Assembly (NCBI RefSeq): GCF_000027125.1
Contig: NC_017626.1
DNA length: 64,000 bases
From: Escherichia coli 042
GTDB taxonomy: Bacteria; Pseudomonadota; Gammaproteobacteria; Enterobacterales; Enterobacteriaceae
Reading direction: 5' to 3' (one strand)
The first letter of the stretch is position 1; each line of letters starts with the position of its first letter. Made by a program: the position numbers and the translations under genes. Positions 11-20,591 of this stretch are shown piece by piece. Below the pieces are notes generated by a model. That model had not been told where the DNA came from. It did no database searches and saw only the letters and a program-made list of their open reading frames with translations.

Positions 11-2320
11 ATGGAGTTATGGATATTTATAGTAGCTATTTATTTGATTTATATTCTTTTTTTCAAAAAGAAGAAAACTAAGTCCGCGGGCTCTTATACT
101 TCCGCTCCTGTGAAAGCACCACCTAAAGAATGGCTTGCTAACAACAAAAAAAATCAGTCTGTAATGCAAAACGAGGACAGCGAAGATGACAATCTGGCTA
201 CGTTTACACTAAGTGGCGGGCGGAATGTCGAATACAGCATAACAGCCACTCAACGCCAGAATTTCTCAAAAACTACCGGTGCTTTGGCTCGTTGGATTTT
301 TCCGGGAGAGATGATCACAGTCAGTGGGATAGAGGTTACCGGCGGTCACTTCTATCTTGGGCAGCGTATGAAACCTGCCGGGCATAACTCAGGCGGTTAT
401 TATGATGGCAATAACGAGGCATCGCTAGTTGACGACACGCTTAAAATATACCCCACACCTTACATTTACGAAGATAGTTCATTAGGGTATTGGCCCAGTT
501 TTTCCTCACTTTCACCTGAAGCTCGTGGTGCGTACCTGAGTTGGCTTGCCAGCGACAGATGCGACACTTCCTGCCCAATTGGTTACGTTTTCATTTATCT
601 GTATGGTCTGGAAAGAAGGGCGCTTGTTGACAGCAGGGACAACAATATATCCGACGATGAGTTCTATTCTCTTTTCAAAGAGATCTGCCGTCTCAGATCG
701 GTTTTCAATGAAAACCGATCTTTCCGGAATTACTCATCCCAGTTACTTGAAGCGATGTCCATTCTTCGTCCGAACGAAAATCTTGCAGCAGCTCTCAACG
801 ATGATTCGGAGTTCAGCAATAGCATGCAGTTCAGGTTAATCCTGGCAAAGACTGTTGATACAGGAGCCCCGGTTCCAGCGGATCTGGCTCTGACGTGGGT
901 GACAAACCATGCTGAATACTCATTACGAACCCCCGCCCGCCGCTGTGCGAAAGAATTTGCTGCACTATTTAAACGGCGTTACACCCTTAAATACGGTGAA
1001 GGGATGGTAGTGAAGCCGAATAAAGCGCGTCTGCGTTTAGATTACACGCCTGCAAGTCCCAGTTTGCGAGGTATTCGGCTTCCTGTTCCCGACTTGCCTG
1101 ATCCAGGTGCATTGAAAGGCCCTGTTCAGAAGCTTATGGCCATTGCCGATATATGCACAGGTGAACTGGATGCTTACAGTCGTTACCTTGGTAGAAAAGG
1201 TACTTCAGCAAATGATACCGCTGCAATTTTGTTGCTGCCTTCAGAAATCGTTAACGAAAGCGCAGAAAAAATATTAAGTACATTCAAACACTGGGCTGAT
1301 GACGCAATCCGCAGTAAGGGTGGGATAGTTTCAGTTGCTGACTACTGGTCACATATGAATGCCACCTGTCCGGCGAAGATCAATAAAAAAGAGGCCGACT
1401 TAATGCAAGCCTTTGCACAGAAAATGGGATACTGTCTGGCTCCTGACCCCTATCACCACCACGTAAAGGCAGATGTCGATGGTGTACTTGTTTTATTCCC
1501 TGCTGGTGAAAGAGGACGTTTCTCACCTTCTCCTGAATTTATCACAGCTGTATTGACGCTCCGATTAGGTTCGGTAGTCGCCTTGATTGACAATTCTCTC
1601 GATCAAGCCGAACAGAAAGTGCTTGAGAATGCCATCAACAACAATGCCAGCTTCAGCGATGATGAAAAGCGCTCTCTGCACGCATATTTAACGTGGCAGC
1701 TTCATACTCCGGCGAATATGACGGGAATGAAAAGCCGGATTGAATTACTCGGTGCAGCGGAAAAATCAGCTGTGGGTAAGGTTATCGTTAGTGTCGCTTG
1801 CTCTGACGGCAGAATTACGCCTGCCGAAATCAAACAGCTTGAGAAGATTTATACAAGCCTGGGACTGGATCCCTCATCCGTATCAAGCAATATCCATCAG
1901 CATTCCGCAACTGAAACTGCTCTCGTTTCATCTGTACCAGCTAATCAGTCGACGGCAGGGTTTACGCTGGATGCCAACGTACTTGCCCGCCACGAATCTG
2001 CCACTGATGATGTTCGTAAATTACTGAACTCAATTTTCACTGAAGAAGAACCAGAACAACCAGAAAGCGCTCCAGCCTCATTAACCGGGGAAGGGGGACT
2101 TGACTCCGCTCATAGCCAACTTTATCGCAGGTTGCTGGAGAAAGAACAATGGTCCAGAAAAGAGGCGACAGAGTTGTGTAGTAACTGGAACCTGATGCTC
2201 GGCGGTGCGCTTGAGGTGATTAACGATTGGTCCTATGCGGTGGTTGATGCACCAGTGCTGGAAGATGCTGATGATCACATTTGGATTGACCTGGAAATAG
2301 CCAAAGAATTAGAGGGTTAG
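11..2320 (+). CDS. Large protein with N-terminal hydrophobic helix; candidate SngA-like (TerB-N/TerB-C type) first gene of a Shango-like operon
   Basis: 769-aa ORF, ATG at position 11; stop is 4 bp before the next gene start. N-terminus MELWIFIVAIYLIYILFF is a predicted TM helix. TerB domain assignment is from recalled architecture, not a computed domain hit. Confidence 0.5.
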   Translation: MELWIFIVAIYLIYILFFKKKKTKSAGSYTSAPVKAPPKEWLANNKKNQSVMQNEDSEDDNLATFTLSGGRNVEYSITATQRQNFSKTTGALARWIFPGEMITVSGIEVTGGHFYLGQRMKPAGHNSGGYYDGNNEASLVDDTLKIYPTPYIYEDSSLGYWPSFSSLSPEARGAYLSWLASDRCDTSCPIGYVFIYLYGLERRALVDSRDNNISDDEFYSLFKEICRLRSVFNENRSFRNYSSQLLEAMSILRPNENLAAALNDDSEFSNSMQFRLILAKTVDTGAPVPADLALTWVTNHAEYSLRTPARRCAKEFAALFKRRYTLKYGEGMVVKPNKARLRLDYTPASPSLRGIRLPVPDLPDPGALKGPVQKLMAIADICTGELDAYSRYLGRKGTSANDTAAILLLPSEIVNESAEKILSTFKHWADDAIRSKGGIVSVADYWSHMNATCPAKINKKEADLMQAFAQKMGYCLAPDPYHHHVKADVDGVLVLFPAGERGRFSPSPEFITAVLTLRLGSVVALIDNSLDQAEQKVLENAINNNASFSDDEKRSLHAYLTWQLHTPANMTGMKSRIELLGAAEKSAVGKVIVSVACSDGRITPAEIKQLEKIYTSLGLDPSSVSSNIHQHSATETALVSSVPANQSTAGFTLDANVLARHESATDDVRKLLNSIFTEEEPEQPESAPASLTGEGGLDSAHSQLYRRLLEKEQWSRKEATELCSNWNLMLGGALEVINDWSYAVVDAPVLEDADDHIWIDLEIAKELEG

Positions 2321-2323
2321 TGA

Positions 2324-3640
2324 ATGTCTGTAACACGTATAAGAGTGAAAGAGCGCGACGCTATCATTCAGTCACTTAAGTCGGGAGTAACGCCAAGAAT
2401 AGGTATTCAGCATATCCAGGTTGGCCGCGTGAATGAGATAACCGCCCTCCATCAGGATATTGAACGGATTGCTGATGGCGGGGCAAGCTTCAGACTTATC
2501 ATTGGTGAGTACGGTTCCGGGAAAACATTCTTTTTAAGTGTTGTACGGTCTATTGCGTTAGAGAAGAAGCTGGTCACGGTCAGTGCAGACCTTTCTCCCG
2601 ACAGACGTATCCACTCATCGGGAGGTCAGGCTCGTAATCTCTACTCAGAGCTTATGAAAAATATGTCCACCAGAAACAAACCAGATGGCAATGCATTACT
2701 TAGCGTTGTGGAAAGGTTTGTTACTGAGGCAAGGAAGGAAGCTGATGCGAACGGCTCCCTGGTCTCATCCGTTATTCATAAACGCCTTGCTGCTTTGTCA
2801 GATATGGTGGGAGGATATGACTTTGCGAAGGTCATTGACGCATTCTGGCGCGGGCATGAGCAGGATAACGAAACCTTAAAATCCAATGCTATTCGCTGGT
2901 TGCGGGGCGAGTACACCACAAAAACTGATGCCCGTAATGATCTTGACGTCCGAACGATTATCTCAGACGCCTCGTTCTATGATTCTTTGAAGTTGATGAG
3001 CCTTTTTGTCCGTCAGGCAGGCTATGCCGGACTTTTAGTTAGCCTCGACGAGATGGTGAACCTCTTCAAGTTGAATAATACGCAAGCGAGAACGGCCAAC
3101 TACGAACAAATTTTGCGGATTCTGAATGACTGCCTGCAAGGCTCCGCCGAAAATATTGGTTTTATCCTCGGGGGGACGCCAGAATTTCTTTTCGATCCAC
3201 GTAAGGGGCTCTACAGCTATGAAGCGCTCCAGTCGCGTCTGGCAGAAAACCGATTCGCACAGAAAGCTGGCGTGATTGACTACTCGTCCCCCACGCTGCA
3301 TCTTGCCAGCCTCACTCCTGAGGAACTGTATATTTTACTGAAAAACCTTCGTCATGTTTATGCTGGTGGAGATCCCGTAAATTATCTGGTGCCAGATGAT
3401 GCTCTGACCGGGTTTCTGCATCACTGCAGCAAAACCATCGGAGATGCTTACTTTCGAACTCCCCGCAATACCATAAAAGGTTTTCTGGATATGCTGGCTG
3501 TGCTGGAACAAAACAGAACGATGAACTGGCAACCCCTCATTGAGGGGGTGGCGATTGAAGAAGACAAGCTCAGCGATATGGATGATGCCATTGTGGAGGA
3601 AAGTGATGACGATGATGGCCTGGCGAATTTCAGATTATGA
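2324..3640 (+). CDS. P-loop NTPase (Walker A GEYGSGKT, Walker B-like LLVSLDEM); candidate SngB-like ATPase
   Basis: 438-aa ORF with clear Walker A motif; stop overlaps the downstream helicase start (ATGA overlap at 3637-3640), implying translational coupling. Confidence 0.6.
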   Translation: MSVTRIRVKERDAIIQSLKSGVTPRIGIQHIQVGRVNEITALHQDIERIADGGASFRLIIGEYGSGKTFFLSVVRSIALEKKLVTVSADLSPDRRIHSSGGQARNLYSELMKNMSTRNKPDGNALLSVVERFVTEARKEADANGSLVSSVIHKRLAALSDMVGGYDFAKVIDAFWRGHEQDNETLKSNAIRWLRGEYTTKTDARNDLDVRTIISDASFYDSLKLMSLFVRQAGYAGLLVSLDEMVNLFKLNNTQARTANYEQILRILNDCLQGSAENIGFILGGTPEFLFDPRKGLYSYEALQSRLAENRFAQKAGVIDYSSPTLHLASLTPEELYILLKNLRHVYAGGDPVNYLVPDDALTGFLHHCSKTIGDAYFRTPRNTIKGFLDMLAVLEQNRTMNWQPLIEGVAIEEDKLSDMDDAIVEESDDDDGLANFRL

Positions 3641-16108: not shown

Positions 16109-16657
16109 TCACTGAGCTGTAATCAATGTACAGCGCTGTACCGGACGATGGGTAATGGCGGTCACAACCGGTAACCCCAGAGACAATGCGACTGTTTTTA
16201 ACGCAACATACTGACCGGATGTATCACCCCGGGCAACCCGAAAACACCTTTCCACCCGGCATTGTCCGCCAGCACTTATCACCTGCCAGCTATGTTGCAG
16301 TAAATCCACCACTTGCGAACATTGTTCATCAACTGTGACACTGGCTCGCGGGTGACAAATACTCGTCTGGCTGAGCAGCAACAGGCATCGAATTGTTGCT
16401 CCTTCATGTTGTTCCCGCAACCAGCGTAATACCACCGGAGAGGATGGACTGGCAGTGTGATTACGCTCAGTAATACGTTCATGCAGTTGTCGATAAAAGG
16501 AAGTACAGAATGCCTGAATCTGTTGCCCGTTGATGTTTCCTTCAGCCGAATGGAGCGTGAAGTGGACTGCCAGCAGACGCGGCCAGTGGTCCACCGCCTG
16601 CTGAACAAAACGCCGGATGTCTCCCGGCTCTGAAATTAAGGCTTCGGTTATTTGCAC
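16109..16657 (-). CDS. YagK/YfjJ-family (inovirus Gp2-like) protein
   Basis: 182-aa ORF with GTG start lying inside the left island repeat; core (VVLRWLREQHEGATIRCLLLLSQ) parallels the other YfjJ-like ORFs in the window. Confidence 0.45.
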   Translation of the reverse strand: MQITEALISEPGDIRRFVQQAVDHWPRLLAVHFTLHSAEGNINGQQIQAFCTSFYRQLHERITERNHTASPSSPVVLRWLREQHEGATIRCLLLLSQTSICHPRASVTVDEQCSQVVDLLQHSWQVISAGGQCRVERCFRVARGDTSGQYVALKTVALSLGLPVVTAITHRPVQRCTLITAQ

Positions 16658-16730: not shown

Positions 16731-17087
16731 GAAATGATGGTTTTATTCAGAGTATATGACTTTCTTTTACCCGCTCAAGATACGTTCCCTAGCGATATCA
16801 TCAGAAGTTTATGTGTTGTGTATCCATCCATATTAATCTGGTTCCAGTTTTCGGTATATGTCATGAGGAAACATTACAAATATATTCTGGAGCGGAGAAA
16901 GGAAATTGAAACCGTTTCAGAAAGGTTGATACGTGAGGCTGATACGAGAGAATATGAACTATGGCGTCCTGCCCGTCGTTTTTTCTCCATTCTTTTTATT
17001 GTTCTATTAGTTTATATTCATTCACTGATAACAACTATAAAATAAAAATTATGGCTGTTCTGATACCGGAGAAGAAACGTTCATTCT

Positions 17088-17807
17088 ATGGTTACCTCTT
17101 CCTGTTATATAAAAATTTTAAATAACAAGCAAGGGAATATAAATGGAAATAACAAAAAATGCAACATAAAAACAGTCATCAGCGGCTGCTTTTTAATGTT
17201 TACTTTATCATTTTCTATTACCTTTATTCCTGCATTCCTTACAAACAGGCAGGAACTTATATCCAGGGGACTTCTTGTTCCAGCATTATTTCTTGCTGAA
17301 TTTCTAATTCTTGTTCCACTGTATTTTATTTTCTTCCGAAAAAGAGAAGGATTAGGAAGAGGTTCTTTTCGACCGGATGTTTTTTACTCTTTTCTCTTTA
17401 ATAATGATTATTCAGTTATTTGTCCCTTATCTGCTGGCAGTGAGGAAAACGGAAGAATGGATGATCTCGCAAATGTCTTTTTCTGAGGCCATTTTATGTT
17501 TCTTCTGTACTTCTATGTTCCTGTATATGAAGAGATTGTATTTCGAGGGTGTTTTTTTAATTCTTTATAATTCTGGTTTAATGACAATATTTACATCTCT
17601 GCCATTGTAACATCAGTCATATTCTCTGCATTGCATCTACAATATACTGACTTTCGTACATTTTTTATGCTCTTTTTAGTATCGTTAGTTCTTATTAGCG
17701 CACAAATAAAGTCGAATGGTCTGTTAATGCCCATATTACTTCACATGGCGATGAATGCAGTCATAGCAGGAATACAATATCTAGCTTATATCAGTTATTC
17801 CCATTAA
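17088..17807 (+). pseudogene. Degenerate CPBP (CAAX protease / Abi) family intramembrane protease-like gene, disrupted by frameshifts
   Basis: Frame ending at 17807 encodes a typical CPBP C-terminus (FSALHLQ ... NGLLMPILLHMAMNAV); upstream hydrophobic segments lie in two other overlapping frames (17088..17486, 17377..17610). Confidence 0.45.
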
Positions 17808-18002
17808 CAGAGCATTTTCTGTTACAATCTCATATGATAAAAATTAAACGGACTAGCATTGTTACTATGCGGTATGCATAAAATGATAAACGTTCGGAGG
17901 AGCCTAACTTAAACCATTACATAGGCATCATTAACAATATAAGGTTTAATTTCCACTCCCCGCAGACGAAGAAGCACTTGATGTACATCTGCCGGATCCA
18001 AA

Positions 18003-18224
18003 CTAGGATGATAATCCTATACCTGAGGGAGACATGGAGGGACTAACCGTCGCAGTCGTTGCCCATGAATGTACTTTATCACCTATATAAGCCCCTGCAA
18101 TAGAACCAAATCCCGGGCTAATAAACGTACCTGCAAGTGAACCAATAGCAATTAATTCTGCCTGCCCGTCATTCCCGTCACCTCCAGATATTTGTTTTAT
18201 TTCATTTTCAGATAGTTTTCTCAT
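18003..18224 (-). CDS. mcmA: Microcin M precursor (double-glycine leader, Ser-rich C-terminus)
   Basis: 73-aa product from internal ATG: MRKLSENEIKQISGG leader then DGNDGQAELIAIGSLAGTF...SPSGIGLSS, matching microcin M as recalled. The 133-aa track ORF is an upstream extension. Confidence 0.8.
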   Translation of the reverse strand: MRKLSENEIKQISGGDGNDGQAELIAIGSLAGTFISPGFGSIAGAYIGDKVHSWATTATVSPSMSPSGIGLSS

Positions 18225-18294: not shown

Positions 18295-18441
18295 CTACAA
18301 GTGATAAAAAAACATATATAGATTAAAAAAATTATATCTATAGTAATAACTAAGATATAATGACACCGGAATATAAAAGAACAGATAATTGATAACAAAA
18401 GCAATCACTGTTATTTTTATATCCTTCTTAACCTCCCCCAT
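18295..18441 (-). CDS. Candidate small hydrophobic immunity protein (McmI-like), below the ORF-track size cutoff
   Basis: Hand translation: ATG 8 nt after aaggag gives a 48-aa ORF (MGEVKKDIKITVIAFVINYLFFYIPVSLYLSYYYRYNFFNLYMFFYHL) between the mchF stop and the mcmA start. Confidence 0.4.
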   Translation of the reverse strand: MGEVKKDIKITVIAFVINYLFFYIPVSLYLSYYYRYNFFNLYMFFYHL

Positions 18442-18476: not shown

Positions 18477-20591
18477 TTAAATAGAAATAATCCTGTCAAC
18501 AGTTCTCAACGTAGTTTCTCTGTGTGCAATAATCACCCGGGTGATATTCATTTTTTTTATGGCAGCATTCACGAAACGTTCACTTTCTGTATCAAGAGAA
18601 CTTGTAGCCTCATCCATAAATAATATTCCAGGTTTCCGGTATAAAGCTCGGGCAATGAATATACGCTGTTTTTGACCGCCGGAAAGACCTTCCCCCAGTT
18701 CACCTATTAACGTTTCATACCCCATTGGCATTTTCATTATCACATCATGAATATGACTTGCTCTGGCACATTCTGTCATCCATTCGTCGTCTGTTTCTTC
18801 TGCAAACCCACAGATATTTTCACGAATTGATCCTGAAAATAGCCGGTCGTCCTGCATAACACAGGCTATCATACGGTGATAATTATTTATTCCAAGTTGA
18901 CGTATATCCGTGCCATTAACCAGTACTTTTCCACTATCTGGTTCAAACAGTCCACATAATACTTTCATTAATGTGGTTTTTCCGGCACCGGAGGCACCAG
19001 TTATAGCCACACTTTCTCCCGGAGCCACAGACAAATTCAGACCACTGAATACCTGTGCTGACTGGCTGTCATACCGGTAGCTTAAATCAGTGGTTTCCAG
19101 TGAAACCGGGCTCATGTCAGCAACGATTTCAATTTCCGGTTTCTTTTCTTCCTTTTCATGTAGTGCAATATCTGCAATGCGCTCATTATGCAGACTCATT
19201 ATTCTCAGTTGAAGAAGAAAACTGGTCAGCGAAGCAACCCGATCCGAAAACTGCCCACGAAAAGAACCAAATGCCACAAACATCCCTATTGTCATCTGAT
19301 TATCGATCACAAGGCTTGCACCCAGCCATAAAATCGCCACCTGATCACAGGCGGCAACAAAAGTATTTATCCCCCCGAAGAGCAAATCCATCTTGGTTAA
19401 CTTAATACCTGAATTGATCGCATCTATTTTCAGGTTAAGCCAGTGTGTTCCCCGGATCCCAGCCATACCTTGGATTTTTACCGTGGCAATACCATACAGG
19501 CTTTCCATAAAATAGGAGCTGGCCCGGGCCCCCCTGACAAGAGTTTCTTCCGATATTTGCCGGTAATAGCCGTATGTCACCAGACGAATAAGAACGTAAA
19601 CCATGGTAAAACCGAGCACTATCCAGGTAAGATATCCTCCATATAACAGCATCATCACAAAAACACCCACAACCATAATACTGTCCATGATTGCCCCAAC
19701 CACACAGGTGGTAAAGGTGGCCCTCAAAGTGTCAAGGGAGCCAAAACGCGACTGGATATCACCTAATTTACGGCGTTCAAAAAACGCCAGCGGCAGTCTG
19801 AGAAGATGGTTAAACAGACCCGACTGCCACTGTATATTGATGAGCGTGCTCATAACCAGTGAGGACCATGCACGCAGCATACTCACCGCGGCCCTGAGCA
19901 ATATAAAGAACATCAGGCCAGCAGAAATAAGCGTCAGCAGCCCTCTGTCCCCCGCCGGAATCGCATGATCCATAACCAGCTGAGTCCCCACCGGCATTAC
20001 CAGATTGATTGCTTCAATTACAACTGACAGACAGAAAATTTTCGCCAGTGTTCTTTTAATACCGTAAATACTGTTAATCAGTGAACGGAGACTTATGCGG
20101 ATCTGCTGGGTTTCCGCCAGGAATTCACTTCCAGGCCAGACCTCAAGTGCAATGCCCGTAAAATACCGGCTCATTTCCTCCCGACCGAGATATCTTCTGC
20201 CTCTGGCCGGATCATGCAGTACATAACGGTTACGCTTTACGCTGACCAGCACGACAAAGTGACTGAAATCCCAGTGGAGAATACACGGCATTTTGAGGGC
20301 ACCAAGTTCATCCAGCTCCAGTGAAAGAGCCCGGGTGACCATCCCCAGCTGCTCCGCTATTCCATTGATTCCTGCAAGGTTTGCTCCACGGGCCGAGAGA
20401 TTAAACTTCCGGCGAAGAGATATCAGGTCAATATTCTTACCAAAATGACCGCATATCATTGCCAGGCAGGCCAGTCCACATTCAGCGGTCTCCGTCTGAT
20501 GAATAACCGGAACACGACGTCGCCAGCGCATATCAAGCTGATTTATAATTTGTCTGAAACTCCCGTTAGTCATTGAGCGGTCCTGTTGCAC
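18477..20591 (-). CDS. mchF: Microcin ABC exporter with N-terminal C39 peptidase domain (CvaB-like)
   Basis: 704-aa ORF; C39 motif around [18 protein letters not shown], six-TM region, C-terminal ABC ATPase ([17 protein letters not shown]). Confidence 0.9.

What the first reader, a model, noticed from the sequence alone, without database searches (positions are those of the whole stretch)
17088..17807. Frameshifted CPBP (CAAX protease / Abi) family gene next to the microcin M gene
A clear CPBP C-terminal signature (FSALHLQ ... LLMPILLHMAMNAV) is present, but the N-terminal hydrophobic parts are spread over two other frames. CPBP proteins are often bacteriocin immunity or self-protection factors, so this may be a decayed second immunity or maturation gene.
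Basis: partly seen in the sequence, partly recalled or inferred. Interest (0 to 1): 0.35.

Follow-up and report, generated by a model that had tools for sequence, protein, structure and literature searches.

The report
Dead copy of microcin gene mcmM
This is a broken, non-functional copy of mcmM, a known membrane-protease gene that sits beside the microcin M toxin gene in E. coli; it is already flagged as a pseudogene in public annotation, so the finding is real but ordinary.

Summary
Window 17143-17807 (+) is a multi-lesion pseudogene of mcmM, the 228-aa, 7-TM CPBP (Rce1-like, PF02517) gene next to mcmA. Against the intact Nissle 1917 orthologue it has an early TAA, four deletions (9, 1, 2 and 11 bp), one 1-bp insertion and a second TAA. 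The reading frame runs 2→1→2→3→1. All three CPBP motifs are still legible.

The same allele occurs in about 25 of 5426 complete E. coli genomes, where PGAP annotates it "frameshifted; internal stop". It is therefore not a sequencing error, and it is not new.

The rest of the MccM module is also dead here:
- mcmT is 5'-truncated.
- mcmI has a -1 frameshift.
- mcmA has a Q74* nonsense codon.

The MccH47 genes (mchB, I, C, D, E, F, plus esterase and glycosyltransferase) look intact. Two STEC genomes carry the same dead mcmM with intact mcmA and mcmI, so mcmM decayed first.

McmM-like CPBPs sit next to class II microcin exporters in Klebsiella, Salmonella and Hafnia. That supports a link to microcins, but their role (immunity, export or maturation) remains unproven.

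The parts
17143..17807 (+). mcmM pseudogene, from the ancestral ATG to the native stop; 665 bp against 687 bp in Nissle 1917
   Evidence: Alignments to Nissle L002:6249-6935. Pfam PF02517 at E=7.4e-16. PGAP pseudogene call on identical DNA.
17161..17169 (+). N-terminal lesion: 9 bp missing plus substitutions, creating a premature TAA at 17167-17169 (MEITKNAT*)
17182..17183 (+). 1-bp deletion (C), shifting frame 2 to frame 1
17379..17380 (+). 2-bp deletion in a T-run (T8 to T6), shifting frame 1 to frame 2
17498..17515 (+). 11-bp deletion (GATTAATATAT) after 17498 and 1-bp insertion (A) at 17515; the stretch between them reads in frame 3
17568..17570 (+). In-frame nonsense codon TAA (Nissle codon K150)
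17529..17546 (+). CPBP motif 1, EEIVFR (EExxxR), still legible in frame 1
   Evidence: invariant in the family alignment A5
17622..17636 (+). CPBP motif 2, FSALH (FxxxH)
17742..17756 (+). CPBP motif 3, HMAMN (HxxxN)
16734..17045 (+). mcmT remnant. A deletion of about 524 bp relative to Nissle removes the promoter region and about 51 N-terminal codons.
   Evidence: Alignment. PGAP: 'incomplete; missing N-terminus'. mcmT identity from PMC6795089.
17927..17928 (.). Junction of a 36-bp deletion, relative to Nissle, that removes an inverted repeat (AGCACCTGT..ACAGGTGCT) between the convergent mcmA and mcmM
18003..18224 (-). mcmA with CAG to TAG (Q74*). The product is 73 aa instead of 92 and lacks the Ser-rich C-terminal tail.
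   Evidence: PGAP calls it only 'colicin V family bacteriocin'
18295..18441 (-). mcmI with a 1-bp deletion in a homopolymer (A7 on the + strand at 18306-18312; T8 in Nissle). The ORF is about 48-50 aa instead of 75.
18477..20591 (-). mchF (C39 peptidase/ABC exporter), intact; 99% identical to Nissle with no indels. It serves as the comparison for the decay of mcmM.

Best explanation
Window 17143-17807 is an old, non-functional pseudogene of mcmM. This accessory gene lies convergent to mcmA in the E. coli microcin H47/M island.

The intact protein (228 aa, 7 TM helices) is a CPBP/Rce1-like intramembrane glutamic endopeptidase. Here two premature stops and five indels prevent any full-length product. 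The gene is one of four inactivated genes of the MccM module (mcmT, mcmM, mcmA, mcmI). The MccH47 production, export and modification genes beside it remain open. mcmM and mcmT were lost first; mcmA and mcmI were lost later, in the window's own sub-lineage.

Inferred, not shown: the intact McmM is an inner-membrane protease that works alongside the class II microcin exporter. It probably cleaves a small membrane-embedded peptide of the system, either the microcin or its immunity peptide, and so tunes self-protection or export quality. It is accessory rather than essential, which would explain why it is lost so often. In this window it does nothing.
For: Identity and breakage:
- Pfam PF02517 at E=7.4e-16.
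- 92-93% DNA identity to the intact Nissle gene WP_000426105.1, which sits next to mcmA.
- Lesions mapped.
- PGAP annotates identical DNA as 'frameshifted; internal stop'.

Not an artefact: the same lesions occur in 97-3250 and STEC434, and about 25 complete genomes match at 98.6% identity or more.

Gene name and description (mcmM, 228 aa, 7 TM, homologue of mceF): PMC6795089.

Fold and catalytic residues:
- AF2 model with pLDDT 88 and pTM 0.85.
- E137, E138, F141, R142, H172, H208 and N212 are invariant across 34 sequences down to 27% identity.

Decay of the module: mcmT deletion; mcmI frameshift, mcmA Q74* and loss of the hairpin.

Order of loss: 97-3250 and STEC434 have intact mcmA and mcmI but the same dead mcmM.

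Relaxed constraint: 30 substitutions in 665 bp plus 5 indel events in mcmM, against about 1% divergence and no indels in mchF.

Link to microcin exporters:
- Klebsiella: the homologue lies 108 bp after a C39-ABC gene.
- Salmonella: it is convergent with a 96-aa class IIb microcin beside mchCDEF-like genes.
- Hafnia: it lies 4 bp after an MFP plus C39-ABC pair, near a Gly-rich microcin-like ORF.

Dispensability:
- The standard MccE492 producer plasmid pJAM229 carries a truncated mceF (PMC6071977).
- Other E. coli copies are broken in other ways: IS1 in EDL933 and a frameshift in GmF046.
- Many truncated E. coli protein clusters exist.
Against: Nothing contradicts the pseudogene call.

For the inferred mechanism of the intact protein:
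- No experiment supporting it was found in the searched papers.
- A thesis cited in PMC6795089 found no immunity role for mcmM.
- Homologues in Serratia and Pantoea sit in chromosomal contexts with no microcin genes nearby, so the family is not strictly tied to microcins.
- The best structural match, SpdC, acts as a non-catalytic partner of another enzyme, so a scaffold role is possible despite the conserved catalytic residues.
Confidence: 0.93

Rival explanations
1. The frameshifts are sequencing or assembly errors, and the gene is really intact.
For: Two of the indels lie in or beside homopolymer runs (the T-run at 17379 and an A-run near 17167), which are typical error sites.
Against: There are seven independent lesions, including an 11-bp deletion, a 9-bp deficit and two point-mutation stops, none of which is a homopolymer error. 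The same lesions are present in independently assembled complete genomes from Japan, the USA and China. Neighbouring genes such as mchF have no indels.
Confidence: 0.01
2. The locus is still functional as a split or recoded gene. This would work through programmed frameshifting, or through separate N- and C-terminal fragments such as the 132-aa ORF 17088-17486 and the 58-aa ORF 17631-17807.
For: ORFs of 132, 77 and 58 aa exist, and the catalytic motifs are still legible.
Against: Restoring the protein would need four frame changes and read-through of two stops. The 132-aa ORF is not conserved: the sister allele in 97-3250 has a stop at codon 15 and a different frame afterwards, and STEC434 carries an extra 5-bp deletion and a mutated start region. 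The three catalytic motifs would end up on different fragments separated by a stop. Substitutions are about threefold denser than in mchF.
Confidence: 0.02
3. One reading: the intact gene was a second immunity gene, in the manner of Abi/CPBP bacteriocin immunity proteins of Gram-positive bacteria, and it decayed because the MccM toxin gene decayed.
For: From my own knowledge, CPBP/Abi proteins confer bacteriocin immunity in lactic acid bacteria (Kjos et al. 2010, J Bacteriol); I did not check this here. The gene sits beside microcin genes in four genera. The whole MccM module is dead in the window.
Against: The order of decay is the reverse of what this predicts. In 97-3250 and STEC434, mcmM is already dead while mcmA and mcmI are intact. 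A thesis cited in PMC6795089 found no evidence that mcmM is needed for immunity, and reports MceF as a negative regulator of immunity. The dedicated immunity gene is mcmI.
Confidence: 0.2
4. The intact gene is an export or maturation factor that works with MchEF, and it became redundant in H47-type islands.
For: PMC6776366 and PMC7472721 class mcmM with the export genes. In Hafnia it lies 4 bp downstream of the MFP/ABC genes, and in Klebsiella directly after the ABC gene.
Against: The passages I read give no experimental basis for this classification. pJAM229, with a truncated mceF, is the standard MccE492 producer. In this system leader cleavage is done by the C39 domain of MchF (established knowledge).
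Confidence: 0.2

Closest known systems
mcmM of E. coli Nissle 1917 / CA46 / CA58 (WP_000426105.1, 228 aa)
   Same: Same locus, convergent with mcmA and downstream of mcmT. DNA identity is 92-93% over the whole gene. The three CPBP motifs are the same.
   Different: The window copy carries two premature stops and five indels and cannot make the protein. It belongs to a distinct allele found in about 25 complete genomes.
mceF of the Klebsiella pneumoniae microcin E492 cluster
   Same: Described as similar to mcmM (PMC6795089). A 228-aa K. pneumoniae homologue (P0034, 55% identity) lies directly after a C39-ABC exporter gene.
   Different: Different genus and different microcin. I did not confirm that P0034 is MceF of strain RYC492 itself.
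CPBP / type II CAAX prenyl endopeptidase family (Pfam PF02517; MmRce1 4CAD, S. aureus SpdC/LyrA 6U0O, MroQ)
   Different: Sequence identity to the solved structures is only 15-17%. No NCBIfam equivalog reaches its cut-off; the best are MrtJ at 49 bits against 75 and MroQ at 31.8 against 270. The substrate is unknown.
Abi/CPBP bacteriocin immunity proteins of Gram-positive bacteria (e.g. SkkI, PlnI)
   Same: Same superfamily, and the same habit of sitting in bacteriocin loci (from my own knowledge, not tested here).
   Different: No immunity activity has been shown for McmM; a thesis reports none. No direct sequence comparison was made here.

Membership tests
CPBP / Rce1-like (Pfam PF02517) | Profile match above the curated gathering score | tested here: met
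   The stitched window translation scores 58.7 bits against a cut-off of 22.4, E=7.4e-16. The fragments score 22.6 and 35.0 bits.
CPBP / Rce1-like (Pfam PF02517) | Motif 1, EExxxR | tested here: met
   EEIVFR at 17529-17546. E137, E138 and R142 are invariant in 34 family members.
CPBP / Rce1-like (Pfam PF02517) | Motif 2 (FxxxH) and motif 3 (HxxxN) | tested here: met
   FSALH at 17622-17636 and HMAMN at 17742-17756. H172, H208 and N212 are invariant.
CPBP / Rce1-like (Pfam PF02517) | Multi-pass helical membrane fold like Rce1 | tested here: met
CPBP / Rce1-like (Pfam PF02517) | An uninterrupted ORF able to yield an active enzyme | tested here: not met
   Two premature stops and five indels. 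PGAP: 'frameshifted; internal stop'. The window holds a pseudogene of a family member, not a functional member.
CPBP / Rce1-like (Pfam PF02517) | Proteolytic activity | not testable with these tools
   This needs biochemistry on the intact orthologue.
mcmM orthologue (microcin H47/M island) | Position: convergent with mcmA, downstream of mcmT, next to mchF/mchE | tested here: met
   The gene order in the window matches Nissle 1917.
mcmM orthologue (microcin H47/M island) | Full-length nucleotide homology to the named gene | tested here: met
   92.7% identity over 731 bp to Nissle 1917, CFT073 and ABU 83972. Alignments A1 and A3.
Bacteriocin immunity protein (Abi type) | Confers protection against the cognate bacteriocin | not testable with these tools
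   The literature reports no evidence for mcmM (PMC6795089). The comparative order of decay argues against an essential immunity role.

The most novel reading that the evidence does not exclude
McmM-type CPBP proteases may be a conserved but uncharacterised accessory of class II microcin export operons across Enterobacterales (Escherichia, Klebsiella, Salmonella, Hafnia). Natural alleles like this one could serve as ready-made knock-outs to find out what the protease does. It is dead in the window, and dead alongside intact mcmA and mcmI in STEC 97-3250 and STEC434. One possibility is cleavage of the immunity peptide or of mis-inserted microcin. The pseudogene itself has no new function under this reading.
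Probability: 0.15. Interest if true: 0.4.

Novelty: already known. Interest (0 to 1): 0.1.

Why it matters
It matters little in itself. The gene (mcmM), its family (CPBP) and its pseudogene state in this allele are all on record already.

The modest value lies in context:
- This island is an H47-type cluster in which the whole MccM module has decayed.
- mcmM was lost before the toxin and immunity genes, which argues that it is dispensable and not the primary immunity factor.
- The function of McmM/MceF is still unknown, even though the gene is conserved next to microcin exporters in several genera.

Strain typing or microcin prediction that scores 'mcmA/mcmM present' by PCR or BLAST would wrongly count this strain as an MccM producer.

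Tried and rejected
- A sequence search of PDB chains with McmM found nothing at E<=1.
- The NCBIfam scan gave only sub-threshold hits for McmM and none for McmT. Pfam gave nothing meaningful for McmT or for the 182-aa neighbour at 16109-16657.
- The paper search 'CPBP + microcin' returned four irrelevant papers. The whole-word search 'McmM' returned mostly unrelated acronyms. The mceF papers gave plasmid descriptions but no functional data.
- The consensus promoter and terminator scan around the locus gave promoter-like sites at background level (9 found against 7.1 expected), so I drew no expression inference from it.
- I considered the 17088 ATG as a new start and rejected it, because the ORF is not conserved in sister alleles or in Nissle.
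- I considered sequencing error and rejected it, because many independent assemblies share the lesions.
- One Python call failed because some fetched loci were not yet on disk. I worked around this with the stored alignments.

Full report
**What is at the coordinates.** Translating window 17088-17810 in three frames shows one protein-like sequence that hops between frames. The C-terminal part in frame 1 carries VYEEIVFRG, FSALHLQ and HMAMNAV. A stitched translation hits Pfam PF02517 (Rce1-like, type II CAAX prenyl endopeptidase / CPBP) at E=7.4e-16, 58.7 bits against a gathering score of 22.4. The two frame-1 fragments hit the same model separately. The CPBP signature is therefore real and far beyond chance.

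**Identification.** The DNA matches E. coli chromosomes only.
- It is 100% identical to strain BEC1-S17-ESBL-09, where PGAP annotates a pseudogene: [quoted passage not shown].
- In Nissle 1917 the orthologous position holds an intact 687-bp gene (WP_000426105.1, 228 aa). It is convergent with mcmA and lies downstream of a 156-aa hypothetical gene.
- The review PMC6795089 names these genes. mcmM encodes a 228-aa protein with 7 transmembrane domains, is similar to mceF of the Klebsiella MccE492 cluster, and is present in CA46, CA58 and Nissle 1917. mcmT encodes a 156-aa protein with 3 TM domains.

**Lesions.** Alignment with Nissle was parsed.
- The ancestral ATG at 17143 is retained.
- Nine bp are missing around 17161-17167, and a TAA arises at 17167-17169 (MEITKNAT*).
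- One bp is deleted after 17182.
- Two bp are deleted from a T8 run after 17379.
- Eleven bp (GATTAATATAT) are deleted after 17498.
- One A is inserted at 17515.
- TTT AAA has become TTA TAA, giving a stop at 17568-17570.
- The native stop is at 17805-17807.

The 132-aa ORF beginning there is interrupted in Nissle and in the sister allele of strain 97-3250.

**Not an artefact.** About 25 of 5426 complete E. coli genomes carry this allele at 98.6% identity or more. They come from humans, cattle, sheep, food and a fly, and from different laboratories. Strains 97-3250 and STEC434 share the 2-bp, 11-bp and 1-bp lesions and the nonsense codon, and each adds private changes (a 5-bp deletion and a changed start region in STEC434). 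This is an old, inherited pseudogene.

Substitutions against Nissle number 30 in 665 bp, split 7/7/16 by codon position. The adjacent mchF is about 99% identical with no indels.

**Context in the window.** The whole MccM module is inactivated.
- mcmT has lost about 524 bp, including its 5' region and about 51 codons (PGAP "missing N-terminus").
- mcmI has a 1-bp deletion in a homopolymer (A7 at 18306-18312 on the + strand, T8 in Nissle), which gives a roughly 50-aa ORF instead of 75 aa.
- mcmA has CAG to TAG at codon 74 (stop at 18003-18005). This removes the Ser-rich C-terminal tail that class IIb microcins need for attachment of the siderophore (the role of the tail is established knowledge).
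- A 36-bp segment holding an inverted repeat between mcmA and mcmM is deleted.

By contrast the following are annotated as intact on the identical record, with matching ORFs in the window: mchF, mchE, mchD, mchC, mchB, mchI, mchS3, the esterase and the glycosyltransferase. This resembles the island of strain H47, in which mcmI is reported truncated (PMC6795089).

**Order of decay.** In 97-3250 and STEC434, mcmA (279 bp, "microcin McmA") and mcmI (T8 run) are intact, while mcmM carries the same lesions and mcmT is truncated. mcmM and mcmT were therefore lost before the toxin and its dedicated immunity gene. This is the opposite of what is expected if McmM were essential for producer immunity.

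mcmM is also broken independently elsewhere: by IS1 in O157:H7 EDL933 and by a frameshift in GmF046, both with mcmT intact. The protein database holds many truncated E. coli forms of 136-184 aa beside the 228-aa cluster.

**What the intact protein is.**
- Homologues found were all from Enterobacterales where a source names the organism (Salmonella, Klebsiella, Citrobacter, Raoultella, Serratia, Rahnella, Hafnia, Pantoea, Mixta, Tatumella).
- In a 34-sequence alignment reaching down to 27% identity, E137, E138, F141, R142, G143, H172, H208 and N212 are invariant. These make up the three CPBP motifs, which argues for a catalytically active enzyme family.
- An AlphaFold2 model of Nissle McmM is confident (pLDDT 88, pTM 0.85).
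- No NCBIfam equivalog reaches its cut-off, and no PDB sequence hit exists.

**Genomic association.**
- In K. pneumoniae a 55%-identical homologue follows a C39-peptidase ABC exporter gene.
- In Salmonella enterica a 53% homologue is convergent with a 96-aa gene. That gene has a double-glycine leader and a Ser-rich C-terminus, which marks it as a class IIb microcin, and it sits beside mchC/D/E/F-like genes.
- In Hafnia paralvei a 40% homologue starts 4 bp after an MFP plus C39-ABC pair, downstream of a Gly-rich microcin-like ORF.
- In Serratia marcescens and Pantoea agglomerans the homologues sit among housekeeping genes, with no microcin genes within 8 kb.

The family is thus repeatedly, but not always, attached to class II microcin export genes.

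**Function.** No experiment on McmM was found in the searchable literature.
- PMC6795089 relays thesis results: no evidence that mcmM is needed for immunity to MccM or MccH47, negative regulation of MccE492 immunity by MceF, and resistance conferred by mcmT.
- PMC6776366 and PMC7472721 list mcmM with the export genes.
- The standard MccE492 producer plasmid pJAM229 has a truncated mceF (PMC6071977).

My best inference is that McmM is an accessory inner-membrane protease acting on a small membrane peptide of the system. It would modulate self-protection or export quality and would be dispensable under most conditions. That is inference only. In this window the gene is inert.

**Verdict.** The feature is a known gene in a known, already annotated pseudogene state, so its interest is low.

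Noticed in passing
window 18003-18224 (-): mcmA carries a CAG to TAG nonsense mutation at codon 74. The predicted product is 73 aa and lacks the Ser-rich C-terminal tail. PGAP labels it only 'colicin V family bacteriocin'. Sister strains 97-3250 and STEC434 have the full 92-codon gene.
   Followed up: yes
window 18295-18441 (-), homopolymer at 18306-18312: mcmI, the MccM immunity gene, has a 1-bp deletion in a T8 run, which truncates it to about 50 aa. PGAP does not annotate mcmI in either this genome or Nissle.
   Followed up: yes
window 16734-17045 (+): mcmT, reported in a thesis to give resistance to MccH47 and MccM, is 5'-truncated by a deletion of about 524 bp. mcmT is intact in EDL933 and GmF046, where mcmM is broken, so the two neighbours decay independently.
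   Followed up: partly
window 17927/17928: A 36-bp segment present in Nissle is missing here. It contains a perfect inverted repeat (AGCACCTGT-TAC-ACAGGTGCT), probably a bidirectional terminator between the convergent mcmA and mcmM.
   Followed up: partly
window 17940-18002 (-), and L006/L007: Beyond the premature stop, the mcmA tail of this allele reads ...GSGRCTSSASSSAGSGN. Nissle has ...GSGRGTSSASSSAGSGS. The last residue, the expected siderophore attachment site, is Asn instead of Ser. The same holds in the intact mcmA of 97-3250 and STEC434. Whether such a MccM can be modified is unknown.
   Followed up: no
L004 (E. coli O157:H7 EDL933, NZ_CP120944.1 3206245-3216573): O157:H7 and many other STEC carry a remnant of the microcin island. 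It consists of an intact mcmT, an mcmM cut by IS1 after about 83 bp, a fragment of the esterase gene and an intact glycosyltransferase gene, with no microcin or export genes. About 1077 of 5426 genomes match the mcmT-mcmM 5' region.
   Followed up: partly
L014 3777-4338 and 4622-8657 (Hafnia paralvei contig): A compact putative class II microcin locus: a 109-aa Gly/Ser-rich peptide with a leader-like N-terminus, a 61-aa hydrophobic ORF (possible immunity gene), then MFP, C39-ABC and an McmM-like CPBP in one apparent operon, flanked by integrase genes.
   Followed up: no
window 16109-16657 (-): A 182-aa hypothetical protein with no Pfam family is conserved next to mcmT in every E. coli locus examined (Nissle, EDL933, 97-3250, STEC434). 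Its function is unknown.
   Followed up: no
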